Source: Schmidtea polychroa
Lineage: Eukaryota
DNA: 64,000 nucleotides
Reading direction: 5' to 3'
NCBI GenBank assembly: GCA_044892525.1
Contig: CM097885.1
Span: forward strand, 172,050,001 to 172,114,000
Under the pieces are notes generated by a model, which worked only from the letters and a program-made list of their open reading frames with translations, had not been told where the DNA came from and did not search any database. This document shows, piece by piece, positions 2,849 through 62,772 of the stretch (position 1 is the first letter of the stretch; each line of letters begins with the position of its first letter). Both the position numbers and the translations under genes were made by a program.

Positions 2849-5800
2849 TTAGACTTTATTTGCTGAATCGTCAGAAATATTATTCACTTTCGGATTTAAA
2901 CTGACAACTTCCGACGATTTTTCCGTGACGGATTTCAGCCAGTGCAATTTGTAACTGATAATTGCAAAAAGACAACCGATTGAAAACATGACTAGAAAAG
3001 TTATTAATATTGCAACAAATGTCCCAAGTGACATCGTGACAAGGGGCTTCTCAATTGGAATCATTGCAGTTTTGTTGATCATGTACCCTAAAGACCATCC
3101 GAGGTTGGCATTATTAATCTTAATGATTAATTTGGATTATCAAAAGATAAGAAATCAAATTGATCAAATGATTCTATGAATAATTAATTATTGAAATGGA
3201 AAGTTATCTCTCTCTCTCTCTCTAACATTTTTTTCTAATTTCACCACTGATTTCTTTCCATTGTATTTATTAAAAAGAGCTTAAAGACTATAAGTATATC
3301 AAATATTTCAAATAAATATATCAAAAACATCAATATACATATAAATAAAAACAATTTAGAATGTTGGCACAATTTTACATAAAAAGAAAAATGAGTAATT
3401 GCTGTATATAAATTATTGTCAAAATTTCACATTTAAAACAATGAATTTCAGTTGAAAAAGGCAGTGCCGAAAATTCGTGAGTATCAACAAACATCGATAT
3501 ATTACTGATTTATAGTCTTCAAACTCTCTTTTTAATTCAATGGATAAAATAATCAGTGGTGAAATTGGAATAAATAAAAGTTCTTATAATAATTAAATAA
3601 ATATTATCAAGATTTAAAAATTTAAATTCACATTATCATCAAAGATTTTGTAAAAAATTATTAATATGGTGTAATTGAATTATTAAAAATTATTTAACAA
3701 ATCTTAATAATAAACAATTAAATTTCACAAATTTCTTTCGTCATTCTTCCAAAATAAAAATGTATTTCGTTTATAAGCCTCAGAAATGTTTCCCAGTTTC
3801 ATTTAGAAAAAAATATTATCTTTAAAATAGGAATCTTTTTAAGATGGCGTATTTCATCACTTGTTTGTATGTTTCATTATTTTTTTCTATCATTTCTTGA
3901 ACTCTATAATAAATTGGCAGGTGTGTCTGCTAATGAATTTTCAGCACATATAAATCATTGATTAATTGTTAGTAGTTTTAATTATTGGTAGTTTTTATCA
4001 AATGCAACGCGGATGTATATTAAAAATAACAAAAACTTTAAAACTAGCATAAGTTCAAGCACACAACTGGATGTAACTTAATGATTGAAAAATAGTGTAC
4101 CTTTGATCGATTTTAATTAAATTTATCTTCATCTAGATTTCAACTATAAATCAATACTTTTTCCTAATTAACAAAAAATTTCAGAATTGAATTTTCGGTG
4201 CCAAAAATTTGTGTTGTCCAAAAAAAGCATTGATCTATAATCGAAATCTAAATGAAGATAAATGAAATTCTACATTTTTATATGAAATGTTCTTATTTTA
4301 TTTAAACAAACCAACTTACCGTGTTACTGAAGGTGATAGAATCCCAGTTCATATTATTAAATCCGAGATTATTAAGTAACTCAAATACATAAAGAAATCC
4401 AAAGCAACGCCATTTTCGCCAATTTTCTAATTCTTGTTCTTTCTGAGTAGTTGGAGTAAGCTAGACATATTTGATGCATTAAATAGTAACTGGAAAATTA
4501 TTTATAATTCTTACCACTTGTGGAGCATTTCGTGAGCAATAATCTTTTGATTTCAAAAGGAAATCATAATAATCTTTAGGGCTGGACTTGAAGAATTTAG
4601 TTAATTGTTTGTATACTAGAGCGTAACCGGCGAATGCCTACAAATTCGCATAATTTCCCAATAACGTTTTTTTTAAAAACGCCACTTACTATATATTTGC
4701 CAGTAATATTCGGTTGGTAAACATTGTTGAATCCGCAATTTTTATGTGCACAATTTGAACGACTGAAAAGTTTCTTGACTGCATTATGACATAGATCAGG
4801 ATCCCCTGTACCGATGTAAGTGACATTCAAAACTATCTTAAAAATTAAATGTAATAATACTAATATTATTATTTTATTAAAAATGAAATTAGCATTTACA
4901 TTTTTCATAAACTCTGGTAATTCAATACTGAATCCGAAATTCTGTTTAGAATAATTTCCAGATACGCAGGGAATGGTTATAATATCTTGTAAAATGTATG
5001 AGGCGCTATCTCCCTTTAGCATACATGGATTGTTTATGGTTGATAATGGTTGATTTGATTTGTAATTGGCTATCCATGTCTTTTAAAACGGCTTAGGATA
5101 ACATCAGTTTTTTAATTAGAACCATACCTGTGACAATAAGGCCAAAAATCGGAACTCAGCTTGACTTTTCCCATAACAAAGATAACTATGACTGTAAACA
5201 TTGTAATTCTCACCATAAAGGCGAACCAGGTTGTTTCCAAAATCAATTGTTTTATTGGTTACAAACGTTATCTGAGTACTTGCCCCTCCGAGATCTAAAG
5301 CACCAAATGTTTCTTTCTTTTTTGTAAATACAGATGTTACTTTATCATCCTAAAATAAACAATAACAATTCTTTCCTGAAAATCTTTGTTTTAAAACTTA
5401 TCTTTTATCGCCTTTAATATGACATTTTACCATTTTCTCTAGAGATTTTAAATTAATAAATTTTAAATAAATCGGCTATATTAAATAAAATGATCTATTC
5501 AAAAAACGTGGAGATAAAAAGAGTAGGTACTCAAATAATTATTTTATACAACAATTCAAATCTAATCTTTATTGAAGTAAAATTTCTAAAAAAACAACAC
5601 CATTTAACCATTTCTCAGACTTTTCTCGCTCGCGCACACCTGCCTAAAAACCAAAGATTTTTACAAATTTATTGATTTTCCAATGATATATAAAAAAGCT
5701 ACTTTTTAGTCTATACTAATTAAATATGAATACGAGAGATTTTAAATTCTAATAAAAGTGCAAAATTAAAAAAATTGGTAGTTCTTTATAAATAAATTTT

Positions 5801-8800
5801 TATTTTTTGTGTACTATTTGGAAAATTTTTTGTAATTTTAATCCACAGAAGCGACTTTTTTATTGTAAAAAGCTTGATATAGTTTTTGTAAATTTTTTTT
5901 ATTACCAACTTTTTTGGGGAAAAGTCTCGCGGCACACCGTTTGAGAAACACTGATTTAACGTATCCGTTTTAAAACGATTTCTAATTTTGGTCATAAGGG
6001 GGGTCAAAAATTTATTAATGAAAATATAACAACATCACAATAAATATGCCAGGCTAAATACAGTAGGCAACCTAATGTATGGGGTGTTGAATAAGCTTGT
6101 ATTCACTTGTTCACTATTTTACCGAAGTTGGTTGAATGGTCAATAGGGCTGGATAAAGATTTTCCAATTGTTTACTTTTTTGACCTGTTTCTTTTACAAT
6201 CTTAAAACCTTTTTTGAAGTTAAACGACGTATTTGGTTTTGGAACCATCAAAAAGTAATCAATTGTTTTTTTGCATTTTCCGAAATTCAGATTCAGGTCC
6301 AAATTCACCAGATGCTTCTTCAACATTTAATACTTCTTGTTGTGACTTAAAAAATTATTCCATTTAAATTTTAATTAAAAATTTTCATTTCTCAAAAAAT
6401 TTGTGGTTATTCAATGTTTTTGTTAATAAATTGAAAAATCTTACTTTAATTTACATATTACATTAATTTACTTTAATTTACTTAATTTAAAAATATTACT
6501 TTAACTTTAAAATTATAGACCATTGATTACTTAGTTAAAAAATTTGAACCTTAATTTACCTATTTTTCCTTGTATTACTTAATTTAAAATTTTACACCAT
6601 AATTTACATATTTAACCAATAATTTCATGTGGTCATTGAATAATTCACAAAGATTTGCATCTAAAATTAACATTGAAAAATATATAAAAATTTCCATTAA
6701 CAATTTACTTTGAAAAATATTTCATAAAAATTTCATTTCTCAAAAAAAGTTGGTGGTTATTCAATCTTTTGATAATAAATTTAAAAAAGTTTACTTTAAT
6801 TTACTTATTTAACTTTAATTTAAAATTTTTGACCAATGATTATTTAATTTAAAAATTTGAACCTTAATTTACTTTAAATTTTAAAATTTGGGCCGTAATT
6901 TACTTATTTGAACCTATTGATTACTTTAATTTACAAATTTAGACCTTAATTTACTTTAATTTTAAAATCTGATCCTTAATTTATTTATTTGAGCATTTAA
7001 TTTACTTTAATTTTAAATTTGAGCCCATATTTTACTATAATTCAATTTTTATACCCATAATTTTTATACCCAATTTTTACACCCCTCACTATAGTCAGAA
7101 AATTCTATGCTTTTTAGTATAGACCCTTTTTTGTATTGAAATTCTCAGGTTCCATCGAGAGTATAGTCAGAGTATGCTGAGTATAGTCAGAGAAATCCTG
7201 GCTTTTTTCTATAGGCCTCTTTATTTGTATTGTAAAAAATATGAGTGGACCACTGCAGCAATTACGTAATCAAAAAAACAAACAAAAAACGAGTCGCAGT
7301 AATTTTTTTTGATTGCTGCAGGGGGCCACTAACTACCTACTATCAAAGCCTTTTCGCATAATCTTCTTCATTTGGAATTTTGTCATATTTGTTATGGCAA
7401 TTTTCGTCCAAATAAGCTCGAACCTTTCTTTGACTATTGTCTAGCTGAATAATTGAAAAGTATGCTTCAATATTCTCAATAAATTCTTCCAAATCGTCTC
7501 CAATTAAATCGATTTTCAGCTGTGGCAGAATCCGTAATAATTCCTGAGTGGGAAGCGTGGTCACATTGTAAAGAATAAGAATAACTTGAGAAATTCCAAA
7601 AACTTTATTTAGGAAATTGTTTTAATATTTATTGTACCGGTGTGCCGACACCAACACAATCACCAATAGCTTATTGGAAAATAATAAACAGTGACATAAA
7701 CAGACAATCAAAAATAATCAATCACACATGCAGGCATTACATAATATGGAGTAGAGGTTAGGGAAATCAAATANNNNNNNNNNNNNNNNNNNNNNNNNNN
7801 NNNNNNNNNNNNNNNNNNNNNNNNNNNNNNNNNNNNNNNNNNNNNNNNNNNNNNNNNNNNNNNNNNNNNNNNNNNNNNNNNNNNNNNNNNNNNNNNNNNN
7901 NGGTAGCAGCATTAATTAAATTTTTTACAATTAAATGTTGATTTAAGCCTTTTGCTACGAATAATACATCGGCCTATCAAAAGTATCCAGACAGGCAGTT
8001 ATTTACATATTGCAATTTATAATGAACGTCTGCAGTGCAAATATGAACAGCAACGGGAATATAGGTCACCAACACCTTCAACATGCTGCATGCGCACGTG
8101 TACACACGCACGCACTTACATATACAGAATATGACTACTCACACCAGACACACAATAGTGAGTCATCTTAATGAAAGATTGTCATTTTCTGAGAATATAT
8201 CTTCTCGGAAAGAGCTTACATACTTTCAGAAAGGCATTATTTTATGGATGTTACCTTTGTGGAGAAAGTCAGAGCGAAACTGCTGCATTGACTGGCCATC
8301 CCAAAGGAATTATTAACTACTTCCTGGGAAGTACCGCCAGGAGCAGACACATGTAAAGTAACGTTCAGGCCGCCCTAGACTTCTGAGCATCCCTACACAG
8401 CGGCAGCTGAAACGACTTGTGGTGACTCATCGTCGGTTTCCCCTGTCCAATTTAGTGTCCACATTTAACACTGGCCAATCCACCATTTTCACCAATCGTC
8501 GCATTTTCATGGTTTCTATGGCAGATACTGCGCAAGAAAGCCTTAAATTACAGAAACAATTCGTCGTCGTCGCTTGAAATGGTGCCGGGAGAGAAAGAGT
8601 TGGACAGCAGAACAATGGCGCTCAGTCATTTGGAGTGATGAATCACGTATTACTCTTTTCAAATCTGATGGACAGCAATTCTGCTAGCGTCGTGTAGGAG
8701 AACGACTGCATTCAGCCAACTGTGAAATATGGAGGATGATCCATCATGTTTTGGAGTCTTTGGATTGGGGTTCACAAAGCCCTGCTCTGAATCCTATTAA

Positions 8801-10878: not shown

Positions 10879-12972
10879 TGATTCAAAATTTATTTCTAAA
10901 AAATTTTAAATTAAATAAGAAATTATATAATTAAAAAAATATTTTTCTTTGTTATAAAATAAATAAGTCGTTATAAATGAAAGTCCAATTTTGAAAAAAA
11001 TATATTAAAATTAAAATTAAACTTCTTTGCATATTTCTAATAAAAAAGTCGATTCAGCAAAATGTCCCCATGAATTGAACAAAAAAGATTTTCATTATAC
11101 CACAATAATAAAATGAGTTTGTATTATTTTTAAATATTGTAAAATGCAAAACTTCAAATATTTTGATATGGAAAAATGAACTTAAACCACTTTCATTTAG
11201 AACGGCTCAGATAATAATTAGTTAATTAACGTATTTGCCAGAATATAAGACGAGTTCCTATTTTACCAGAAATATATAAAAAAAAACTTTTTTTTCTATA
11301 TCTAATCATGCACAAAATTCCCTATAATCGGAAGATCAGAATATAGGACGACTCTATTTTAATGATATTTCTGGAGGGAAAACCTTCCCTTATATTCAGG
11401 TTAATGCGGTACACATAAATATCAAATCAATGAAATTTCAATAAAATTTTTAAAAAATTAAAAATAAGTTTCAACTTGAATATAAAATACGTTTTCAAGT
11501 CAAATAATTTAAATTAAAACTAATTTAGCATTTAAATCGCTGTTTCAAAAAATTAATAATAAGACAAAAAATTTTTTTTGTATATTTTATGGTTGTTTGA
11601 AGAAACACTTTCCGCAATTTATTTCACTACATAATAAATAATAAATATTTACTTTTGGTATTTTAACTATATTTTAATAAATACAATGGAAATGACACCA
11701 TTAGTGAAATTTGAAAAAAAAGTTCTTATGTATAGTTATATATATATAAACAAGGCGATTGACAAGGTTAACGAGTATTAATTCGTTAATTTGAAAAATA
11801 TTATAAAATTGAAAATAATAAAAAAATATTAGATTTCCTTATTGCTTCCATCAAAGTATTGAACTAACCAAATTAGGCATCACTTGATATTTAATAATCA
11901 TACAATTTTTTTATTTAAATTAAATTAATTTATTTATCCATGAAAATGAAGATAAAATATAATTTTAATATAATAATAAATTCTCTATAAATTTAGATAT
12001 TTCATAGTTATTTAATGCTCGTCTTTATGAAGCCACAAATTTCTGATTCTTCATGAAAAAAATGGAATTCATTTAGAATAAAAAACAAATAAGAACAAGC
12101 CATTATTTCCAAATTATTGCATTCACAGCACATTTAACATGTCTTGACAAAAAAAAACTGACAAATGTTTTAAATAAATTCCACTTGACATTTTATGGTT
12201 TTACTGGTCGTTCAAGATTTTCATTACTTCAGAGTCAAATATAAAATTGTTAAAAACTGATTTTATTTATTATATTTACTTTCTAAATTTCCATAATTTA
12301 TTTTCGGATAATTCCGTCATATTATTAGATGATATTTAAAGAAACGCAGATTTTTCTATGATGAATAAAATTCAGGACATTAAAATTTTTGAACTTTTCC
12401 AGAATTATGTATATATGATACACGCATTTTACAATTCAATAACTAAAATTAATTTAATAATAATAATAATAAAATTTATCCTAATAATACAGTCAAGTTT
12501 CCTATAGCGCGACGCGTTCTTCTTAGTAAATATATCGTTGGCAACACTTATACGATGTTTTGAATTTAAATATTTGTCTGTACGTAGTAGGCATTTAGAG
12601 GGGATTTCCCTTTTTCTGAATTTCAATTACGTATTAGGCAATTAAAAATCAATAAATCATTCCTTTTAATTTATTTATCACAACCTGATGATGTATTTTG
12701 AGAATGCAGTTTTTTATATAGTTTTATTTGAGTACAATTTATTTATTTCTAAGATTCTATACAACTCGGTACGAATTCATTCAATTTATATTAGTTCTCA
12801 GTTCCAATGACAGTTGTTACCAAATAACGCGATGTAAGTTAATATGATTTGTCTTATTTCTATGTTTCTCATAACGCGATCTCTATAAAATGTATCTTTT
12901 TACAATCTTTCTTATAACACTATTTTCATATAAGGTGGTACGAATTAATCGCGTTGTATGAGTTTTATTTAA

Positions 12973-13715: not shown

Positions 13716-14095
13716 TTAATGAGGATTTCAAAAATATTATTTAAAAATCTAGCTTATTTTATAATCTTTCTAATAGATTATATTCTTATTGTAGTTCTTG
13801 ATAACTGCTATTTCCGAACATTAGTTCATAAACAAAAGTCACCATTGAATAAAAATACAACAAAACCTTACAATTCTTATTTATTTATATCATAAGCAAT
13901 ATTCTTCTGTAGTGAAATCATGAATATTTTTTATTAAAATGTTTTAGCCAGATATCAATCATGGAAAATTGTAAATTAGCTAGAAAGATAAAAATATTTA
14001 TTTATATTTTTTGAAAGAAGATAACAAAATCTGTTAATTTTCAGATAAGATTGGAAATTTTTTTTTATTAATAATAATAATAATAATATTGACAT

Positions 14096-14330
14096 TATAA
14101 AGTGATTCTTTCTTGGTAGAATCGTTAATTAAATGCAATAAAGTGATAATTTACGCCTTTTTGCTGCGAATAATATATTTAATGAAAATATTTTCGACAA
14201 TAAAATAGACCTTGTCAATCTTATAGTCGAAAATATTTTCTTTAAATACATTATTCTCAGCAAAAGGCTTAAATAATCACTTTATTGTTTTAAATAATAA
14301 ATGCTGCTACCAAGAAATCATCACTTTATA
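14096..14330. repeat. Foldback / palindromic MITE-like element with ~105-bp imperfect arms
   Basis: TATAAAGTGA..TTCTTGGTAG...GCCTTTTTGCTG...GAAAATATTTTCGAC is mirrored by GTCGAAAATATTTTC...CAGCAAAAGGC...CTACCAAGAAA..TCACTTTATA. Confidence 0.8.
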
Positions 14331-14473
14331 CTATTAATTAAATGTTAATCAATTAAATGATAATTTAATTGAAAAGGACTATTTTTATAGTCAAACATTT
14401 TTTATTTTATTAAATATTTAATTTAGAGCAAAATCCTTAAGTCATCATTTAATTGTTTAATTTTGATATTTAT

Positions 14474-18084: not shown

Positions 18085-18180
18085 TACTTGAAAAAGGCAC
18101 TGCCGAAACTTTTTGAATATCAAAAACATATCAAAAATATATCGATATTTACTGGATTCATAGTCAAGCTTCTTAATAAA
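18085..18180 (+). repeat. Degenerate copy of the hammerhead-headed repeat
   Basis: TAC-TTGAAAA-A-GGCACTGCC-GAAA-CTTT..., followed by ATCGATATTTACTGGATTCATAGTC. Confidence 0.7.
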
Positions 18181-18864
18181 AAAATAATCCTAATATGTTT
18201 TATGTTTTTAAATTTTATTGCACAAACCTTACATTAAAGGCTGTCTTGCCTAACAAAATTTTAAAAAAGTTGTTTCGTAATATTTTTCTCTCCGCCTTGA
18301 GACTGGTATTAATTTAGTTTATTATTAACTAGCTGTAATAGAAAATTAAGAATCGAAGATTAAACTAATAAATAAAATGTATTCTGTCGGCGGGGAAGCA
18401 TAAATAATTCTTAAAGTCCAGGAAATTTAATAAAAACTAAACCGCAACAGTATTATTACCAAACCTGAACAAGTACATATTTATTCTGATTTTTTTCGTC
18501 GAGGCAATAGACTGAATTTCATAATTTTCAATTGTCGGATACATTTATAATTTATAAATATATATAAATGGGAGATTTTAGTGATATAGAAAGTATTCGA
18601 TGGTAATATTTAATTACGTACACCCATTCATGATAGGAATTTTTCCCCTTGATCCAATTTCTATTCAAAATATTGACATATTGTGTAAGCCAACAAGAAT
18701 GATAATAAATGTGAAATGCGTTTCTAACGGGAATTAAATTAAATTTCAATAATTTTTCTGTCTATAAGTGATAATTGCATGGGCTTAATTATTTTATTTC
18801 TCATTTTATTTAATAATCCCTAAAAATGTTTAGGTTTTTATAATTATAAACGATTATTATTATG

Positions 18865-18969
18865 AGAACTTTGTTTCAAATTTCACCACTGATTTATTTT
18901 CCATTGGCATTGTATTTATTAAAAAGCTTTGTATGAATCAGTAAATATATCGATGTTTTTTTCAAGTGA
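18865..18969 (-). repeat. Inverted, internally deleted copy of the hammerhead-headed repeat
   Basis: rc TTCACTTGAAAAAAACATCGATATATTTACTGATTCATAC...TGGAAAATAAATCAGTGGTGAAATT; stem II deleted. Confidence 0.7.
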
Positions 18970-18977
18970 ATTTGATG

Positions 18978-19058
<81 letters not shown>
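18978..19058. repeat. (ATT)27 microsatellite (second ATT run at 19143-19184)
   Basis: Direct reading. Confidence 0.95.
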
Positions 19059-19138
19059 GACAAGGACTATCGTATAGTCGAAATTTCTTTCATTAAATAC
19101 ATTAATTGCAGCAAAAGACTTAAATTATCATTTTATTG

Positions 19139-19185
<47 letters not shown>

Positions 19186-25989: not shown

Positions 25990-27020
25990 AGACAAGAGAG
26001 GACAAGGCAAAGTTTATGCATTTATTATTGCCAGGCCTAATGAGCAGTGACCAAATATCTGTGCCTGAAAGACACGGTGGATATTTGTTCGCGTCCACAA
26101 GGGTCGTCTGTGCCTTCCCCAAGTGGGGTCAGAAGAACCTGGGCATTATAGCTTTCCGTACGGAACATTACGCCTAGCATGGGTAGTCAACTACCAGCAC
26201 ATTCGAAACGTATAATTTCAAAATACATGCGTCATTGGCACTATAACCAAATTAATTAATGTTTTCACTAACACAAATATATATTTACAGAGGCCTCCCA
26301 CTAGTTGGATTACAACCGCCCACCACGACGATCAGCTTGTAAATATATATTAATTAAGGGATAAAGAGGACCCACCCAACCCTATTATATTTAATTTACA
26401 AATTTTTCTCGCTCTTCTGCTGGTATTCTATCTCAAAATTATCATCTCCATCGGGCCATTTGATAGTGATTTCATGGAATACATCTTGCAAATTGGACGT
26501 ATTTCTTAGTTTCTGATGCGGTGTCAACTATCATTGCTAAAATTTATATTGATTTAAAAGCAATTAACTTACATTATCTAACATTTTATCGTCACAGGCT
26601 TGATAAATTAGGCAACTGTTATTTGTGGTATACTTTTTCAATGTCATTTCCCACCATAAAACACAGATACCTAAATATAATATATATATTTTAAAGAATT
26701 AATTCATGTCTTACATTAATAATAATAATATTCTTCAGGTAGTACTTTACAATATCTAATTGATAAAACATCGGTTTTTTCCCATTTTTCTTGACATTCG
26801 TTGAAAGTTTACATAATTTAAGTCTGATAATTCATGTTGAAGGACACCCACAATCAGCTAATTCATTTAAGAAATCCCGAACATAGCAATGTTTCACCAT
26901 TTTGTCTGGTTCATTTTCTTCTATAATTCATGTTTTAATAAGAAATCTCTAAATCCAGAACATAAGTCATTTAGTGTTTCACCATTTTGTTCATCTTCTT
27001 CATAATTATATAATTCATTT
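25990..27020 (-). pseudogene. Decayed small spliced gene(s) of unknown function
   Basis: Exon-like blocks NEENELYNYEEDEQNGETLNDLCSGFRDFLLKHEL, ICVLWWEMTLKK...DDKMLDN|GTAAGT and TPHQKLRNTSNLQDVFHEITIKWPDGDDNFEIEY, separated by short AT-rich GT-AG introns; stops and an internal duplication present. Confidence 0.4.
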
Positions 27021-30470: not shown

Positions 30471-30531
30471 AATTTATATTACTAAATATAAAAAAAATAT
30501 ATTACTAATTATTATAAAATAATTAGTAACA

Positions 30532-30783
30532 CTAGGGGCCCTGCCCCTGTTCGCTTCGCTTCACTAACCTCGTTAGAACGTGGGGTTAATGTTAAATTTA
30601 ATATCCAGGGTATTCTTGGATAGGAGTAAGATTCAGTTTATTAATATGTTTACATAACTATGATAAAAGATAATAGCATAAACCGTCTCTAAGTAATATA
30701 GAACGATAAGTACAAAAGAATAAAAAAATAAAAAAAATAAAATTCGGATGGAAGAGACCCTTAGCTTTTTATATATAGAGAGA
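30532..30783 (-). mobile_element. Short non-autonomous Helitron
   Basis: Minus strand starts TCTCTCTATATATAAAAAGC and ends GCGAAGCGAACAGGGGCAGGGCCCCTAG (GC hairpin then CTAG), between A and T, no TSD. Confidence 0.8.
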
Positions 30784-31439
30784 TATTTTTTATTTTGATT
30801 TTAAATAAATATTATAATCGAATATTATTTAAGTAAGATGAAAATTAAACTATAATAAATCAAATCACTGTCAAAATAATTTTAAATATTTAATTAATAA
30901 AATTGAAATAAAATAATCTAAAAAAAATGTTTTAGAAATACAAATGAGTACTTTCAGAGTACAGTATTTGAAATATATATATATATATATTACCCAGCTA
31001 ATAAATATTTCTTTAATTCGTCCTTTCTAAAAGTGACCAAGACCAATATTACATTATGACAAAAACACTGGCAAAGATCTTTCCGCCAGACATCTTGTTA
31101 GCTAATACTGCATTTGTATTTACATTTGACACATAATAAAAATTGCATTCACTGGAAAATATGAAATTTTTCATTTTGGCATCTTGATAATCTTATCTTG
31201 TGCACTTGTAATTTTTATGTTACTCTTTTATATATATTTTTGTTTAATGAAATCATACTTGATATATAGTGATGATTACTTGCAGACAATTCTTGAAAAC
31301 TATTAGTTAGCCATTAATAATTCATTCGAAATATTATAACTTTTTTTTCGAATTTCACCGCTGATTAGTTTTTCCATTGAATTTATTAAAAAGAGAGTTT
31401 GAAGACTATAAATCAGTAATATATCGATATTCTTTTAGA

Positions 31440-31472
31440 CTCACGAATTTTCGGCACTGCCTTTTTCAAGTG
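31440..31472 (-). ncRNA. Best-preserved minimal type-I hammerhead-ribozyme-like motif (U3-A8); repeat body extends to ~31345
   Basis: rc CAC-TTGAAAA-A-GGC AGT GCC-GAAA-ATTC-GTG: stem I CAC/GTG, stem II GGC/GCC, palindromic AATT stem III, UUC cleavage triplet. Confidence 0.6.
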
Positions 31473-34400
31473 CTTCTTTCTTTATTACATTTTTAGTCTT
31501 TTATAACTTTTATCAAGTGCAACACAGCATTCACCTCATATCATCATGAGTAGTAACTCGAATGGTGTCTACAAGTTCCATGTTTTTCTTTTGCCCATAT
31601 TCTTAACATAATATTCTTAATAAAATTCTTAATAAACTGACAAAAGAAAGGCTATTTAAAATAAGATTTTATTAAAAAAATATTTGAATTTGATAAATTA
31701 AAAAAACTCTATTTTAAGCGAGAAAAACAAACAAATCAAATTTATGAAAATAATAAATTATTCTTAAGTGTATTATTTGCAAAATTCTATTCGTAATTTA
31801 TTTATAATCGCAGCACAATAGAAAAATGTCGAATTCTGTTTAACAGTATTTCTAATATTTGATAAAGTTTGTTTTAAATATTTATCGTTATCATTAGGAA
31901 TTTATTGATCTATTTTCATCTAACAATAGAAAATAAATAAATTTATTATGGATCCATGTGATTTTCTGCAAATTTGCTTTTATTTATTTTCATTTAATTT
32001 ACGATAATAGATCAAAGTTTCTTAATTAATATAAATAACTTCAAAAAGCCAGTGGGAAGAATTTGTGATCTACAGTTGAAAGCTAAATGAAAATAACTGA
32101 AATTGTAAATGAAAACAGATTGAAGCTGAAGATGAAAAAGATAAAAGGTTTTACTGAAAATATGTTTTGTTTATCAATTTTTTATGTTTTTAAAGCAATT
32201 ATTTCATATGTAATTTTAATAAGTTGATTTCAATGTATACAAAGTAAATTATGATATTCCTCTTCTCAAAAAGATATGTCTTAAAGTCAATTTCTTAACC
32301 AAAAGGTCAATAAAAGAAAGAATTTTTTTAAACATTTTAAAATCTTTAACGCCCATCTCATTTATTATACAAATTTCGAGAATGCGATTATAAAAAAAAT
32401 ATTAAAAAAATATTTAATAAGTTATTGTTAATAAAAATTATATTTTTATAATATTTTAGTAGACATGTAGTAGTATATCAGAAATTCAGAGAATGAATTC
32501 AATTTTTTCTAAATTTGTGTTATTTAAGGGAGTTTCATAATTTTTCTCAACCTCTAAATAGGTTTCAAGTTACTATTATTCTTATTCTTTGACAGGTAAA
32601 AATTAATGAAATTATAATGCAAACATTTCTTACAGTTAACACAATCCGGTTAATATAAATTTATATTGTAAATAGATAATAATATAAATGTACATTAAAT
32701 ATGTAAATATATATATATATAAAATAAATATATAAATATAAATATATAAATATTATATAAATGTATAATAAATATGACATCTTTATTTATCTAAAATTCA
32801 CGAGAAATTTAAATATTGTTTATATAATTAATATTGAATCGGATAGAAAAAAACTTTCAATTTTTGTATCGGTGCATTCGATTAAAGAAACAAATTTTAT
32901 TTATATTTATCATACACTGATCGCGAATAAACAATAAATTTCTAAACATCAACTTCGAGAGATAAGTGCTCTTATCAAATTTAAATTTGACTTATGATTT
33001 ATTTTATTAGTCTAAAATTATTAAAGTAATTAATTATTTATTAAGAAAACTTTAAATTGATTTTATAGTTAAAAGTTGAGTTTAAGTGAAATTTCATTTT
33101 AATGTTGGGCTAATTTAATCAAAAACATTTCAAAGTTTAATCTGATTTAATAAATAATAATTAAATAATATATAATTTATGAAATTATTTTAAATATAAA
33201 TATCAAAAAATTATATTTTTTAAAATATTTTTTGACGTCAAGAATTGAAAATGTCAACAATGAATCTTCTATGTTTACTCTTTCATTAACTCTATTTGAG
33301 TACTGGGATAGGAAACAAAGTATAGTAATAAATTAACTAATTAAATAAAATTTCCCATTAATAATTAATATAAAAACACAACAGTAAATTATCCATGATA
33401 AAATTAACGATATTTCTTGTTGAAGTTAATCGGAGTTGATTTACTAATAAGCTTTCAATTATTCTATATAGTAAAACAAATAATTCCCTATATTAGTAGT
33501 GTAAATAATAGTAGTGTAAAAATATGAAAGTAAAAGTATTAACAAAAGGAACCCCATATATTTTAATAAATTTTTTTCTTGTAAAAATTTAAAAACACAT
33601 TTTAGATATAAGCAAGCTGAGAAAATTCAAATGTTCTCTCTAGTGGATGCCAATGACAAAAATAAAACATCGATAAAATTTATATAAATTTTCAATTTAG
33701 TATTTTAATGGTAAATAATTAGTTATAAATAATTAGTTTCGGTTATAATAGTAGTTAAAAATTTCAAAAAAATGTCATAAGGAGGCCAGCAAAGGTAGGT
33801 GCGATAAATATTCAGAGTTATGATTTGTTATTCAACAATTATTAATCAAATGACTAACTACCAAAATGATATATTACTATTAATATTTTACACTTATAAA
33901 TTAAATATTTACAATTTTTATAACAATCTAAATAGTTTAAAATATCCTAAAAGTATACATGAGTACAAATATTTGACAGTTGGGGTAATGATTTGCCATA
34001 TACACTATTCCACTGAAATAAACAAAATATTTTATTTTTTATGACATAAATTTCTCTTTTTATGAAAAAAACATTGTGCAATTGCTGGCTAGAAAAAAAA
34101 CTCTCATCATTAACAATAAATATCTCTTTTTATTGAATAATCAACTATCCAACAAATAATAAACAAATATAATAAATAAATTTCTATTATCCAAAATGTA
34201 TATTTTCAAAAAGAAATCATCACTAAAACACGATATTCTTTCCCCTCCCTTTTATTTAGAGGATTTTTAAATTTAAAAATTTCCCTTGTAACTTGTTTAT
34301 ATAGCCTATTTGTTGAAAAGGAAGTCAACTCAAGAAATCCTAAAGTAATATTACAATAATAAAGTTCTATTATTATAGAATATGTTCAACACTAATTAAA

Positions 34401-53437: not shown

Positions 53438-53545
53438 TAATCAGTAAAGATATCAAAAACATCGATATCTTTAATGATTCAAAGTCAATTTTTTAATAAA
53501 TACAATGCCAATTGAAAAGAAATATGTGGTGAAAATCGAAAGAAG
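53438..53545 (+). repeat. Headless, diverged copy of the hammerhead-associated repeat
   Basis: ATATCAAAAACATCGATATC...TTTAATAAATACAATGCCAATTGAAAAGAAATATGTGGTGAAAATCGAAAG. Confidence 0.6.
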
Positions 53546-53799
53546 TTCTTTTAATAAAAATTCTTTATAAATTCATAGAAAATTAATCCATTTATTTCTT
53601 CCAAATATTATGTCAAACATTCTAAATAACTTAAATTTTGAAATTATAAATAATTTGTTACTATTTTCATTTTAAAATTTCATTTTGAAAATATTTAGAT
53701 AAATAATTTGTTATTAGTTTCTGTCGTTTATAGTTATTATGACGCCTTCTTCACTGCAAAATTTTCTGTAGGAGCAAGGGCAGTTCAATTTTTCTTGAA

Positions 53800-53833
53800 T
53801 TCACTTGAAAAAGGGAGTGCCGAAATTCGTGAG
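53800..53833 (+). ncRNA. Hammerhead-like motif copy with mutated stem II; repeat body to ~53895
   Basis: TTCAC-TTGAAAA-A-GGGAGTGCC-GAAA-TTC-GTGAG. Confidence 0.5.
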
Positions 53834-54099
53834 TATCAACAAACATCGATATATTACTGATTTATAGTCTTCAAACTCTCTTTTTAATAAATAAATATTT
53901 TAGAAGATGGAAGGACGTTAAAAATTTTGAAGCTCAAATACTATACAATAGGAACAAATAGGTACAGAATAAATATAAATGTAGACAATAATCAATAATG
54001 ATGGTATCTACGAGATCAAAAGAATAAACATTATCATATTGACTTATTAATAAAAATTTGATGAGATGCAATTGATGACATTATTTATTATTATTCTTA

Positions 54100-57228: not shown

Positions 57229-59351
57229 TTAGTTAGTTATTTTATTATCATTATTTTTAATTGGTTTGTACCTCACTTTAAACACATTCAATCCACGATA
57301 ATCTACACACATCCTGATAGATCCATCTTTCTTCCCTACTTTCACTAACGGGACATTCCAATGACTCTTGCAACATCGAATAACATTTGCTTTCATTAAC
57401 TCTTTTATCAGTTCTTCAATTCTTTTCTTCATGTACATTGGTTGACGTTGAGGATGTTGCATTATTGGGCCTTCTGTTATTCGCATCTCATGTCGAACTA
57501 AGTTTGTAAATCCCAGATCGAATTTCGATGCCATAAAAATTCCGCCGTATTCCCTGATCATTCCTTCAATATCTTTATTATTCTCACATGCCATCGCCAC
57601 TAGTGCTTTATTTATTCTTTCTTCATCAGTGTAAAATTTGTTTATCAATGACGTTTTTATATTATTGATTTTCACTAACTTTACTCCAAACTCTTTCATT
57701 GTATCAATGCCCTCTATGAATTCGGGTTTGATCTCTTTCACCACTACTACTGTGAATATTTTGGTCTTATGATTCCATGTGGCCGGTATAGTCATGTATC
57801 CCATTGCTTCTTCACCTCCAGTTGAAAAAACTCCGCACAATAATATCATACTACGTTTAAGTTCTGGTTTGCCTATTTTCTCCCACAAATTCTTGCTCGT
57901 GACTGTTACTGATGCTCCAGAATCCCATAACATCTCTGTTTCGGCATTATTCAACATTATTTTACTCCAATTTCTTACATCTATCGTCTGGTACATCTCT
58001 TCTTCTGCCTCGTCTCTTCGTCGTTCATTTCTTATTTCACAATTTATTGTCTTGACTCCACAGACGAAATGAAACCCATGGAGTCGCTGATGTTTTTTCC
58101 ATCTTCTCTCAATATAGTATATTTCTCAGGGACACTGTATCTATCTTCCATATTGCTGTGATCCATTCTGAAATCCTGGGTGTTCTCGGTGTAATCTCTT
58201 CTTTCAGATTTTGAATCTTCTTCTTCTATGCACGCTATTCTTTGATATCGGTGTGGAACCTCTTTCCGTAACGAAAAACAATCTCGGAAACCGTGACCTT
58301 CCTTGCCACATATCAGGCATTTATTTCCCAGTGGACACTAATACCTTCTATGTCCCCTTTCGCCACAGCAAAAACAATCACCTACCGTTAATTTTGGGAC
58401 CGATGCTTGTGGTAGTCCTCTACTTTCGTTGTACAGCCTCCTTCCAATATTATTCACGGATATTGTTGGCAGCTTCCTTTCTGAGCTATTCGGGATTCTC
58501 GCATTTCTCAAGAATTGTTATCTTGGAGATTGTTCTCGACGACTATGGTTACTTCCTTCGTATTGTATTGGTCCGTGTATAGGGTGTTCGTCTCTTCTTG
58601 ATCTGTGGTGACTAAATGGGTCTTCTGATAGTCTTCTTTGTGATGATGTAGGCATGGGATCTTGGATATTCTTTTGAATTCTCATCTTCCCTCCCTCAGT
58701 CACGCTAGCGTATGTTCTTTGACCGATTGCTTTAATAAATTCTGTTTTATGGTTTTCATTTTTGGTACTTTCAAAAATTTTCGCCAATGATCTCGTTTCT
58801 TCAATTTTTGTTTCTGGTTTCGTCAATAGTATCTCCCTCAGTCTCGCATCGCGTGCTTTATTTGCGATGAGGTCTTGAACAATATCTCCTTCTGATCGTC
58901 CTGAATTTACAACTTCAGCTAAAGCTTTTCTTAGTCATATCTCAAAAGCTGCAAACCTTTCATCATCTTCCTATTCCATAGCTGCAAATTCTCTGATTTT
59001 GTCAGTTATTGATTTTGTAATTGTGAACGTATTTAAGAACCACGCTTTGGCTTTTACATCTGTTGTTTCTGTTTCTCTGAAGTTTCCCCACAATGTCTTT
59101 GCTTCTGCCACTAATAACACATCGAAAGTGCTTGTCAATCGCTGTCCATTTGTCAGCAACCATTCTTCTATATCCCTGATCCATTCTTCGGCTTCTTTTA
59201 AACCTCTTCCATCATATCGTCTGATGTTCAGTGTCAGCATGTCTTGGCATGATTTCGGTAGGCATTCCATTAGCGATTTTGTCGATTTCGAAATGGCGTT
59301 GATATTTTGATTTTCGGCGTGGTCGCCAGTTAAATCCGTCTTTATATCCAT
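57229..59351 (-). mobile_element. Ty3/Gypsy gag-pol remnant (gag, two CCHC knuckles, aspartic protease, truncated RT)
   Basis: gag YDGRGLKEAEEWIRDIEEW; knuckles CFCCGERGHRRY*C and CLICGKEGHGFRDC (~58280-58375); protease LWDSGAS; RT start PLVKVGKKDGSIRMCVDYRGLN, then abrupt truncation. Confidence 0.9.
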
Positions 59352-59614
59352 CTTAAATTTGCAGCAAAAATCTTGAAACTGACAATATATATTTAATCAA
59401 AGAATTTATAAATAACAAGTTTTGATTAATTCACAAAAACCGCCAATTCCAAATTATTTAAACAAAACGATATCTAACTAGCATAAAATCATTTTATTTC
59501 TGAAAATTATGAGAAGTATATAATAATTAATAATCTAAATAATAACTTCAGAAGGATAGTCCAAACAAATTTTCAGCGTTGAATAAAATATTTCAAAAAC
59601 CATTTATTAAAATT

Positions 59615-61159: not shown

Positions 61160-62772
61160 TTAATCTATGTTGATGATCCTCACTGTATTCGTGGAACCGG
61201 GTGTCGGCTTCCAACCGGTGACCAGTACAATTAAATCTCCAGTTTTAAAGAACCCCTGTTCACAGCCGTATTCAATTGAATAACTGATTCTTACATCAAC
61301 GTCATCACTCCAATTCTGTAAACCAGGCATCATGCACAACAACGGATGCAAACCTCGCCAGAGGTGACACTGCCTAGCGACGATTTCATTTCTTGTCACA
61401 GCCAATATTGGACAACTCGGCCGATATTTTGCAATCAAATGCGCCGATTTCCCCGTTGTTGTCAACACGACAATTGCTTTGGCGCTTGACAACTGAGCAG
61501 CCTCGACAGCAGCTACAGCAGACGTCTCAATGGCGTCGCCGTAATATTTCGAATCGGATTTCAATTCTTGCAAATATCGATTTTGGAAAAACATCGATTC
61601 TCCTTCTTTGCAGACTTCGTGCATAGTGTGAACGGTCTGAACTGGAAATTTCCCCTTTGCCGTTTCTCCGGACAACATAACGCAATCACTGCCGTCTAGT
61701 ACGGCATTGGCTACGTCACTGATTTCCGCACGAGTCGGCCGGGCTTTTGTCACCATTGATTCCAGCATTTGCGTTGCACAAATCACCGGTTTACCTTTTC
61801 TGTTGCATTTGGCGATCATCATTTTTTGTGCCGCTACTACTTTTTCTGCTGGTATTTCAATTCCCAAATCTCCCCTAGCAACCATTATACCATCGGCAGC
61901 ATCGATTATTTCATCAATCCGTTTCACTCCTTCATAATTTTCTATTTTAGCGATTATCAAAATATGTTTTCCAGCATCACCGAGAATCGATCGAATTTCT
62001 TGAATCGCTGCGGCGTTGCGAATAAACGAAGCAAACACAATGTCGACCTGCATAATGAATACCAATCAACAACATAGAATTTATTAATGTTTACTTTGTG
62101 TTTCACGCCGAATTGTAAATCGGCTTTGTCTTTTTCAGATACTGCCGGTAAATCAACATAAGCTCCAGGAAGATTGACACCTTTTTTCGATCCCAACGAT
62201 CCGCCGTTTTCAATTTCACAATCTAAATAGTCTTCACCTTTTCCAATAACAATTAAACTAATAAGTCCATCGTCGATAAAAATTCGACTTTCGATTTTGA
62301 GAATATTGACAACATTTTTGTAATCTATCCATATATTTTTATTGTCACATTTTTCGGCATATTCTTCATTGGTAACTATTCGAACTTTTTCACCTTCTTT
62401 TAACAAAATTTCCGCAGTTTCACTTCCATTAATTAAACCAGTTCTGATTTCTGGTCCTTTAGTGTCTAACGCAACTGAAATAGGCCTATATGAAGCTTGA
62501 TATGTGTTAGAAGCGTCATGAATTAATTTTATCGATTTTACGTGATAATCATGAGTACCGTGGCTAAAATTAAGCCTAGCAATATTCATTCCAGCCGCAA
62601 TCATTCCATGAAGAGTCGCAATGTTGTTGCATGCAGGACCAATGGTGCAAATTATTCCGGTATTTCTAATTATGAATGGTTTTTTATCAATATCAAGATC
62701 ACATAAATGATTCAAAGAAGAAGAAGCATGATGTCTTGCACATTGGCTATCGATTATATCATTTGCAGACAT
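61160..62772 (-). CDS. PKM: Pyruvate kinase, 521 aa, 2 exons
   Basis: Exons 62772-62095 and 62047-61160 with a 47-nt GT-AG intron; motifs [70 protein letters not shown]. Symbol reflects the metazoan PK family, not a tested orthology. Confidence 0.96.

What the first reader, a model, noticed from the sequence alone, without database searches (positions are those of the whole stretch)
31345..31472. Dispersed repeat headed by a minimal hammerhead ribozyme with a U3-A8 compensatory core
Seen: the minus strand reads CAC-UUGAAAA-A-GGC(AGU)GCC-GAAA-AUUC-GUG. This parses position-for-position onto the minimal type-I hammerheads known from Penelope-like-element terminal repeats and metazoan retrozymes (stem I, CUGANGA, extra A, short stem II, GAAA, palindromic 4-nt stem III, NUH). 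Established: C3 pairs with G8 in the active fold, and palindromic stem III allows dimeric hammerheads. Here both bases change together (U3, A8), and all four stem-II-containing copies keep UUGAAAA. Inference: this is a self-cleaving RNA of a non-autonomous retrozyme or PLE family that standard CUGANGA searches would miss.
Basis: partly seen in the sequence, partly recalled or inferred. Interest (0 to 1): 0.8.

Follow-up and report, generated by a model that had tools for sequence, protein, structure and literature searches.

The report
Penelope retrotransposon end with hammerhead ribozyme
This is a short leftover end of a Penelope-type jumping gene, repeated thousands of times in this genome, that carries a small RNA motif predicted to cut itself; its unusual U-A core pair is real but already published, so it is an ordinary example.

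Summary
The motif is present at 31442-31472 (minus strand) and parses as a minimal type-I hammerhead with a U3-A8 core. The repeat (31332-31472) is not a retrozyme. It is a solo pseudo-LTR plus tail of an endonuclease-positive Penelope-like element: the same sequence follows RT + GIY-YIG frames elsewhere. The 31-mer occurs 1,199 times exactly. The family's endonuclease is about three-quarters identical to the published PNL2_SM. U3-A8 is in print (PMC3088659; PMC4209133, including UUGAAAAA in a Schistosoma Penelope element), and this scan found it before on other DNA. Copies within the family show no covariation. A second Penelope family here (28% protein identity) keeps U3-A8 with different helices, and three other motif types use C3-G8. 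Cleavage is untested; no raw RNA reads were available. One side result: 21 of 93 copies start at one base 33 nt upstream of the predicted cut and none start at the cut. Most copies were therefore likely made from uncut RNA with a fixed 5' end. Verdict: new member of a known kind, low interest.

The parts
31332..31472 (-). Solo pseudo-LTR plus 3' tail of a Penelope-like element (family A), the whole insertion
   Evidence: 85-92% identity to the other scored copies of the repeat; no ORF remnant in the window by tblastn; no target-site duplication of 6 nt or more in 40-nt flanks
31442..31472 (-). Minimal type-I hammerhead motif, with helix I cut down to 3 bp in this copy
31463..31469 (-). Core box U3-U4-G5-A6-A7-A8-A9 (U3 at 31469, A8 at 31464)
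   Evidence: Sequence; 49 of 50 sampled copies keep U3 and 49 of 50 keep A8
31453..31461 (-). Helix II GGC/GCC with 3-nt loop AGU, preceded by one unpaired A (31462)
   Evidence: Minimum-free-energy fold; P(10.1-11.1 pair) 0.97
31445..31452 (-). GAA box, palindrome AAUU (31449-31446) and C17; predicted cut between 31445 and 31444
   Evidence: Sequence; parse follows the alignment in the PMC4209133 supplement; cleavage not tested
31381..31441 (-). Rest of the pseudo-LTR up to the first common 3' end (about +92)
   Evidence: 48 of 93 sampled copies end at +80 to +99
31332..31380 (-). Optional tail, which is the element's 5' leader just before the ORF start; second common 3' end (about +147)
   Evidence: 33 of 93 copies end at +140 to +159; in L053 the ATG follows the tail at about +149
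31482..31492 (-). 11-nt match to the element's 3' UTR just upstream; may mean the 5' junction lies further out, with a replaced stretch between
   Evidence: Read by eye; uncertain in AT-rich DNA
3449..3588 (+). Second window copy with tail; closing pair of helix I broken (CAG)
53798..53892 (+). Third window copy, short 3' end; helix II and the GAAA/palindrome box damaged
18086..18180 (+). Old, decayed copy that keeps the core box and helix II
18855..18962 (-). Copy with the hammerhead body deleted
3223..3293 (-). 5'-truncated fragment, head-to-head with the copy at 3449
11658..11729 (+). Decayed tail fragment
53451..53556 (+). Decayed fragment without the hammerhead

Best explanation
The 141-bp insertion is a solo terminal repeat of an endonuclease-positive Penelope-like retrotransposon, and its first 31 bases are a minimal hammerhead motif predicted to cut RNA after AUUC only when two copies pair through their AAUU palindromes, likely with help from the element's protein. 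Shown: the motif, its place behind an RT + GIY-YIG gene and before the next start codon, two alternative 3' ends, head-to-head inverted pairs, and a pile-up of 5' ends 33 nt upstream of the predicted cut. Inferred: the element is transcribed from a partial tandem. Its reverse transcriptase primes internally at about +92 or +147 in the 5' leader, as measured for the anole Poseidon element. Copying back to a fixed RNA 5' end at -4 (C of CAC = +1) then gives the many 96-150-bp solo copies. These copies keep the whole hammerhead, so the template was probably uncut and cleavage is probably slow or acts at another step. The window copy is probably inert: it is solitary, has a 3-bp helix I, and has no ORF nearby.
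For: RT (PF00078, E 1.8e-6, just under the cut-off) and C-terminal GIY-YIG (PF01541, E 1.9e-6, above the cut-off) lie upstream of the motif. 13 of 30 RT loci have the hammerhead downstream on the same strand and 10 of 30 have an inverted repeat upstream. L053 has two direct repeats 2,862 nt apart with the ATG right after the tail. There are two 3' end classes, 48 and 33 of 93, and 12 head-to-head pairs among 93 anchors. The descriptor gave 96 hits in 641 kb of held DNA and 0 in the same DNA reversed: 88 U3-A8, 6 C3-G8, 2 mixed singletons (the loci were picked for these repeats and overlap, so these are not frequencies). Family B (intact 856-aa ORF, 28% identical to family A over 308 aa) has U3-A8 with wholly different helices I and II. 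Published precedent: U3-A8 pairing is active in vitro (PMC3088659); UUGAAAAA occurs in a Schistosoma Cercyon element, and 3-bp helix II and AAUU palindromes occur in other elements (PMC4209133); internal priming, the tail and protein-assisted cleavage are shown for Poseidon (PMC11167929). 5' ends: 21 of 93 at -4, 0 at +29, 3 in +27 to +31 against 5.5 expected. A second listing gave 59 of 100 junctions at -4 (hand count) and 9 of 100 at +29 among the 277 copies lacking C28, out of 2,701 copies that span +29 to +52, about 1%.
Against: No cleavage or expression data were obtained. Copies show no covariation within the family: genome-wide there are 15 C3-A8, 16 U3-G8, 7 other U3-non-A8 and 1 C3-G8 copies, as expected from neutral decay. 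The motif folds no better than shuffles (z -1.08 for the window copy). The double-hammerhead fold (-12.6 kcal/mol) is less stable than two monomers (-17.0) or a dimer paired through helices I and II (-28.6). Published minimal hammerheads cleave weakly or not at all as monomers. The longest open frame among the 30 best RT loci of family A is 442 aa, so no active master copy was seen. Family B has a similar AAATT word upstream of its hammerhead but no 5' pile-up there or elsewhere, so the fixed 5' end is not general. The tail is about 50 nt against the 30-40 bp described.
Confidence: 0.85

Rival explanations
1. The repeat is a non-autonomous retrozyme: tandem 150-450-bp units cut by the hammerhead into monomers that circularise and are copied by another element's RT.
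For: The unit size (96-150 bp) is near the low end of the retrozyme range; copies are abundant and mostly non-coding; retrozymes are reported to derive from Penelope repeats (bioRxiv 10.64898/2026.07.22.740005).
Against: No same-strand anchors lie within 1 kb among 93, and there was 1 direct pair in 89 loci. The hammerhead is the minimal type, whereas retrozymes carry canonical ones (PMC7229834). Copies do not begin at the cut site. The repeat is continuous with an RT + GIY-YIG gene.
Confidence: 0.04
2. The motif is a vestigial or non-catalytic hammerhead-shaped structure, kept as a protein-binding or promoter-proximal RNA element and not for cutting.
For: No genomic footprint at the cut; the active dimer is thermodynamically unfavourable; hammerhead mutants did not affect insertion in vitro and no RNA-seq ends lay at the cut for the anole element.
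Against: Catalytic-core letters and the 3-8 pair are kept across families while the helices turn over, which fits selection on the active fold; the anole hammerhead does cleave with protein and shows C3/G8 rescue.
Confidence: 0.1
3. The 5' pile-up at -4 is not a transcription start. It comes from junction chemistry: annealing of two cDNA ends through the AATT palindrome, or an endonuclease cut at ATT.
For: Many -4 junctions abut an inverted partner and read as near-palindromes; palindromes at inverted junctions are described (PMC3846280); the anole endonuclease prefers ATT; family B lacks the pile-up; a G excess at -5 (21 of 59) is mostly explained by the inverted arm.
Against: 8 of the 21 copies at -4 have no inverted partner. 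The edge is one-sided: 55 of 93 ends lie in -3 to +46, only 1 in -60 to -9. The base at -4 is the A of a YYANWYY initiator-like word (consensus recalled; such a word is common in AT-rich DNA).
Confidence: 0.35
4. The hammerhead parse is a chance resemblance inside an ordinary repeat.
For: The motif is short and AT-rich; the fold z-score is weak; there is no Rfam hit.
Against: 0 descriptor hits in 641 kb of reversed DNA; the position is where Penelope hammerheads are described; an unrelated-looking second family has the same core.
Confidence: 0.01

Closest known systems
U3-A8 minimal hammerheads of Cercyon Penelope-like elements of Schistosoma mansoni (Cervera and De la Pena 2014, PMC4209133)
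   Same: Same core letters UUGAAAAA, unpaired base between 9 and 10.1, G10.1-C11.1, palindromic 4-nt stem III, location in the pseudo-LTR, mostly single dispersed copies (about 1,300 reported).
   Different: Helix II is 3 bp with a 3-nt loop (6 bp with a 9-nt loop in the S. mansoni example), the palindrome is AAUU, and helix I is 6 bp in most copies; the Schmidtea example in that paper has a C3-G8 core.
PNL2_SM, a Penelope-like element printed directly under the Nematis rows of Fig. S2 in Craig et al. 2021 (PMC8557442)
   Same: The endonuclease and linker match family A at 38 of 50 residues in the first printed block (L021) and about 68 of 89 over three blocks (L058), counted by eye.
   Different: Only the endonuclease could be compared; its terminal repeat and hammerhead were not seen. 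The group label is inferred from row order. That the suffix denotes the planarian Schmidtea mediterranea is recalled.
Poseidon element of Anolis carolinensis (Frangieh et al. 2024, PMC11167929)
   Same: Two 3' ends that define a tail, insertion into AT-rich DNA (85% AT in 3' flanks), hammerhead in the repeat, uncut RNA as the main template.
   Different: C3-G8 core; there the priming sites lie inside the ORF, whereas here both 3' ends lie before the ATG; the mechanism was measured there and is inferred here.
Natural U3-A8 hammerheads (Perreault et al. 2011, PMC3088659)
   Same: The same covariation of the 3-8 pair, stated to be active in vitro.
   Different: In the passages seen they are not linked to Penelope elements.
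Non-LTR retrozymes of animals (PMC7229834)
   Same: Short, AT-rich, abundant repeats with a type-I hammerhead.
   Different: Those are head-to-tail tandems with canonical hammerheads that give circular RNA; this family is dispersed or inverted, minimal, and joined to an RT gene.

Membership tests
Minimal hammerhead of Penelope-like elements (PMC4209133) | Core boxes NUGANNA and GAAA with a Watson-Crick 3-8 pair | tested here: met
   U3-A8
Minimal hammerhead of Penelope-like elements (PMC4209133) | Unpaired nucleotide between 9 and 10.1; G10.1-C11.1 pair | tested here: met
   A at 31462, G31461-C31453; 8 of 50 copies lack one A of the run
Minimal hammerhead of Penelope-like elements (PMC4209133) | Palindromic positions 15.2-16.2 and an NUH site | tested here: met
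   AAUU then C; C-to-U in 8 of 50 copies, still H
Minimal hammerhead of Penelope-like elements (PMC4209133) | Located in the pseudo-LTR of an RT element | tested here: met
Minimal hammerhead of Penelope-like elements (PMC4209133) | Compensatory changes in helices and core | tested here: inconclusive
   Absent within family A; present across two U3-A8 families and three C3-G8 motif types, which are few independent lineages
Minimal hammerhead of Penelope-like elements (PMC4209133) | Self-cleavage as a dimer or with protein | not testable with these tools
   Only contigs were available
Endonuclease-positive Penelope-like element | [quoted passage not shown] | tested here: met
   Both domains in one open frame of L036; no full-length intact ORF among 30 loci
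Endonuclease-positive Penelope-like element | Direct and inverted pseudo-LTRs, 5' truncation, optional tail | tested here: met
Endonuclease-positive Penelope-like element | CCHH motif in the endonuclease | tested here: met
   CxxC between the GIY and YIG boxes and two invariant histidines in alignment A1
Nematis clade | Reduced zinc-finger linker plus CCHH, and placement in an RT tree | tested here: inconclusive
   Close to PNL2_SM, printed with the Nematis rows; the linker reads CxCx5C rather than Cx2-5CxxC; no tree was built because no labelled reference sequences were held
Hydra clade | DKT in place of DKG; CxCx5C linker | tested here: met
   SDKTN and CICQSSTKC
Hydra clade | Loss of CCHH; RWK motif; C-terminal CxxC and CxH | tested here: not met
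   CCHH kept; no RWK or C-terminal CxH seen in the frames; not filed as Hydra
Non-LTR retrozyme | Head-to-tail tandem units of 150-450 bp | tested here: not met
Non-LTR retrozyme | Canonical type-I hammerhead with loop 1-loop 2 contacts | tested here: not met
   3-bp helix II with a 3-nt loop; definition
Non-LTR retrozyme | Circular or linear monomer RNA | not testable with these tools

The most novel reading that the evidence does not exclude
In this family the thousands of solo terminal repeats record the mechanism directly. The RNA starts at one initiator base 33 nt upstream of the hammerhead cut, the RT primes internally at +92 or +147 of the first unit, and it copies uncut RNA back to that start, often on both target strands to give head-to-head pairs. 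The hammerhead would then not define the template's end but would remove a 33-nt capped leader, acting as an off-switch for translation or copying. I did not find this genomic footprint described.
Probability: 0.4. Interest if true: 0.45.

Novelty: new member of a known kind. Interest (0 to 1): 0.2.

Why it matters
The U3-A8 core is not new, so the finding as written adds one more family to a published list. Its use is as a test case for an open question that Craig et al. call unclear: what hammerheads do in Penelope elements. This genome holds two high-copy U3-A8 families, one with intact ORFs. The sharp 5' edge of family A copies gives a precise prediction (RNA start at -4, cut at +28/+29, priming at +92 and +147) that one 5'-end mapping experiment could test.

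Tried and rejected
Rfam scan: no hammerhead family at E<=10. RNA evidence: no RNA holder was listed. Laying contigs of three runs guessed to be RNA and one of unknown kind showed pieces of the element but cannot show starts, ends or strand; it was not used as evidence. Related loci in metagenomes: two alignments had no conserved seed, and a single-protein scan found 174 pattern hits, none confirmed, so no cross-species hammerheads were obtained. Prediction that family B starts at the same AAATT word: failed; essentially all of the 100 listed copies continue upstream, and 65 mapped copies show no pile-up (a cluster at -92 is a subfamily with different upstream sequence). Cap-derived G at -5: 21 of 59 junctions have G, but about 15 are explained by the inverted or duplicated arm (hand count), so this is inconclusive. 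A second hammerhead core able to cut at AUC/AAAUU (the -4 site): none found in L053. Within-family 3-8 covariation: 1 double change against 31 single transitions, not distinguishable from chance. Target-site duplication at the window copy: none. Hydra-clade membership: rejected (CCHH kept). Paper searches with no result: C3U, G8A, planarian terms; PNL2_SM. Rows dropped before the n=93 count: 7 segmental duplicates of 100 anchors (L073, L124, L115-L119); three 5' ends that ran falsely along an inverted arm of a reference, and one copy that was its own reference, were reset to the first-pass values. Folding with and without the tail favoured the hammerhead helices with the tail in 5 of 8 natural copies, but not in L002 or L007, and only weakly in L038; this was treated as a hint only.

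Full report
Observation. The minus strand at 31472-31442 reads CAC-UUGAAAA-A-GGC-AGU-GCC-GAAA-AUUC-GUG. There are 2 near-matches in the window and none in 100 shuffles. The parse holds position by position: U3 at 31469, A8 at 31464, one unpaired A, a 3-bp helix II, the GAA box, the palindrome AAUU and C17, with a predicted cut between 31445 and 31444. The minimum-energy fold gives helices I and II but is no more stable than shuffles (z -1.08). The repeat extends to 31332. The window holds seven further pieces of it, and only this copy passes a structural descriptor. Rfam misses it.

What the repeat is. The genome G000 (781 Mb) has 1,199 exact copies of the 31-mer and 6,724 matches to a downstream 29-mer with up to 2 mismatches; the reversed-pattern controls gave 0. 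Walking upstream from two copies reached a GIY-YIG endonuclease and an RT. Pfam gives RVT_1 at E 1.8e-6, just under its cut-off, and GIY-YIG at E 1.9e-6, above it, with both domains in one frame of L036. Of the 30 best RT loci, 13 have the hammerhead downstream on the same strand and 10 have an inverted repeat upstream. L053 carries two direct repeats 2,862 nt apart, and its ATG follows the first repeat's tail at about +149, counting the C of CAC as +1. This is the partial-tandem, inverted-repeat and tail anatomy described for Penelope-like elements (PMC8557442; PMC3846280). No ORF remnant lies in the window, so the finding is a solo repeat. The longest open frame seen in this family (family A) is 442 aa, so no active master was found among the loci examined.

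Family identity. The endonuclease matches the row PNL2_SM in Fig. S2 of Craig et al. at 38 of 50 residues in the first block and about 68 of 89 overall, counted by eye. That row stands directly under the Nematis rows. The host is therefore probably a planarian flatworm; this is an inference, and the meaning of the suffix is recalled. The protein has two Hydra-clade marks (DKT, CxCx5C) but keeps the CCHH finger that Hydra lacks, so it is not filed as Hydra. Its clade was not tested by a tree.

Is U3-A8 new? No. Perreault et al. report natural U3-A8 covariation and cite activity in vitro (PMC3088659). Cervera and De la Pena describe it in Cercyon Penelope elements of Schistosoma mansoni, with about 1,300 hits. 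Their supplement prints UUGAAAAA for one of them, and 3-bp helix II and AAUU palindromes for other elements. Earlier notes of this scan reached the same verdict on other genomes. I saw them after forming my reading, and they are not independent support.

Is the motif under selection? Within family A there is no covariation. In 50 copies chosen by a downstream anchor, 49 keep U3 and 49 keep A8, and the common subfamily variants lie outside the motif at +40, +75, +85 and +127. Genome-wide there are 15 C3-A8, 16 U3-G8, 7 other and 1 C3-G8 copies, which fits neutral decay. Across families the picture differs. A search with a distant homolog uncovered family B, with intact 856-aa ORFs in five loci and 28% identity to family A over 308 aa. 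Its repeat carries GAGA-UUGACAA-G-GACUAU-CGU-AUAGUC-GAAA-AUUC-UUUC, the same U3-A8 core with different helices; 1,755 copies match a 24-mer of it. Three further motif types in the held DNA have C3-G8; they were not tied to an ORF. The descriptor gave 88 U3-A8, 6 C3-G8 and 2 mixed singleton hits in 641 kb, and none in the reversed DNA. The loci were chosen for these repeats and overlap, so these counts are not frequencies. Keeping the core while the helices turn over supports a real hammerhead, but few lineages stand behind it.

How it most likely works. A monomer cannot close stem III, because only two bases lie between A15.1 and U16.1. Cleavage would need two copies, as proposed for all minimal hammerheads, whose activity in vitro is low. 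In my calculation the double-hammerhead fold (-12.6 kcal/mol) loses to two monomers (-17.0) and to a dimer paired through helices I and II (-28.6). That fits the protein-assisted cleavage measured for the anole Poseidon element, where hammerhead mutants did not affect insertion and uncut RNA was the main template. The copies agree. Among 93 independent anchors (100 minus 7 segmental duplicates), 3' ends fall at +80 to +99 (48) or +140 to +159 (33), 12 head-to-head pairs occur, and no same-strand anchors lie within 1 kb. 5' ends are 21 at -4, 55 spread over -3 to +46, 5 at -8 to -5, 1 at -60 to -9 and 11 further upstream; none lies at +29 (binomial P about 1e-18 for the pile at -4 against a uniform spread). 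A second listing, which partly overlaps the first, gives 59 of 100 junctions at -4 among 968 copies (hand count). About 1% of the 2,701 copies spanning +29 to +52 begin at +29 (9 of 100 listed among 277), which is background. The simplest reading is a fixed RNA 5' end at -4, internal priming at +92 or +147, and copying of uncut RNA. A transcription start is the likeliest cause. The base is the A of an initiator-like word (consensus recalled), and the Drosophila virilis promoter lies in the pseudo-LTR (PMC2377424).

Results against this reading. Family B has a similar word but no pile-up. Many -4 junctions abut an inverted arm and could reflect annealing at the AATT palindrome, although 8 of 21 have no such arm. 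A cap-derived G could not be shown. No RNA data could test a start or a cut. The tail is about 50 nt, longer than the 30-40 bp described.

The window copy itself. It has lost the five 5' bases, leaving a 3-bp helix I. It has no same-strand partner with a hammerhead in the window and no target-site duplication. It is probably inert.

What was read. PMC4209133: parts 1-2 of 4 of the text, passages and part 2 of 3 of the supplementary PDF. PMC11167929: parts 1-2 of 4. PMC8557442: passages, sections 11 and 12, and passages plus part 54 of 59 of the supplement. PMC3088659, PMC3846280, PMC2377424, PMC7229834 and bioRxiv 10.64898/2026.07.22.740005: passages only. Figures were not visible. The bioRxiv supplement and the unread parts of the Craig et al. 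supplement may list the hammerhead of PNL2_SM or similar 5'-end data. Statements that something is not in print rest, which cover open-access papers only.

Verdict. Observation confirmed; interpretation partly supported (Penelope repeat yes, retrozyme no, novelty no); new member of a known kind; interest 0.2. The side result on 5' ends would deserve about 0.45 if confirmed.

Noticed in passing
L180:736-4090 (G000:C1:242775000-242780000) and L181-L191: A second, young Penelope-like family (B) with intact 856-aa ORFs, DKG and GPKF motifs, its own U3-A8 hammerhead and two 3' ends about 35 nt apart; 1,755 exact 24-mer copies. It is better material for biochemistry than family A.
   Followed up: partly
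L048, L180:366, L003, L164, L156: Three further minimal hammerhead motif types with the usual C3-G8 core and 6-nt palindromes; not tied to an ORF.
   Followed up: no
window 7902-7965, 14089-14332, 19056-19143: Fragments of family B's terminal repeat, some inverted and next to (ATA)n or (ATT)n arrays.
   Followed up: no
window 26238-26336 (-): Weak match to the Alu domain of metazoan SRP RNA (29.6 bits, E 0.00077, far below the gathering score); possibly a 7SL-derived fragment.
   Followed up: no
window 30530-30580 (-): GC-rich stretch ending in CTAG followed by T, resembling a Helitron 3' end (pattern recalled).
   Followed up: no
window 31507-31520 (-): A near-copy of the hammerhead's first 13 bases lies about 47 nt upstream of the insertion, like the short duplications seen at other 5' junctions.
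   Followed up: no
family A protein, L058 and homologs P0001-P0018: Mix of Hydra-clade marks (DKT, CxCx5C) with a retained CCHH finger; homologs at 32-47% identity come from unnamed metagenome and transcriptome records, suggesting a wider lineage between Nematis and Hydra.
   Followed up: partly
window 61160-62772 (-): Two long frames that look like a pyruvate kinase gene (by eye).
   Followed up: no
window 57229-59396 (-): Broken gag/protease/RT-like frames of an LTR retrotransposon (by eye).
   Followed up: no
window 4597-5082 (-): Exon-like frame resembling an NTPDase/apyrase family protein (by eye).
   Followed up: no
G000:C1:15587687-15960288 (L114-L119): One repeat copy with identical flanks recurs six times at spacings of about 58-197 kb, marking a large segmental array.
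   Followed up: no
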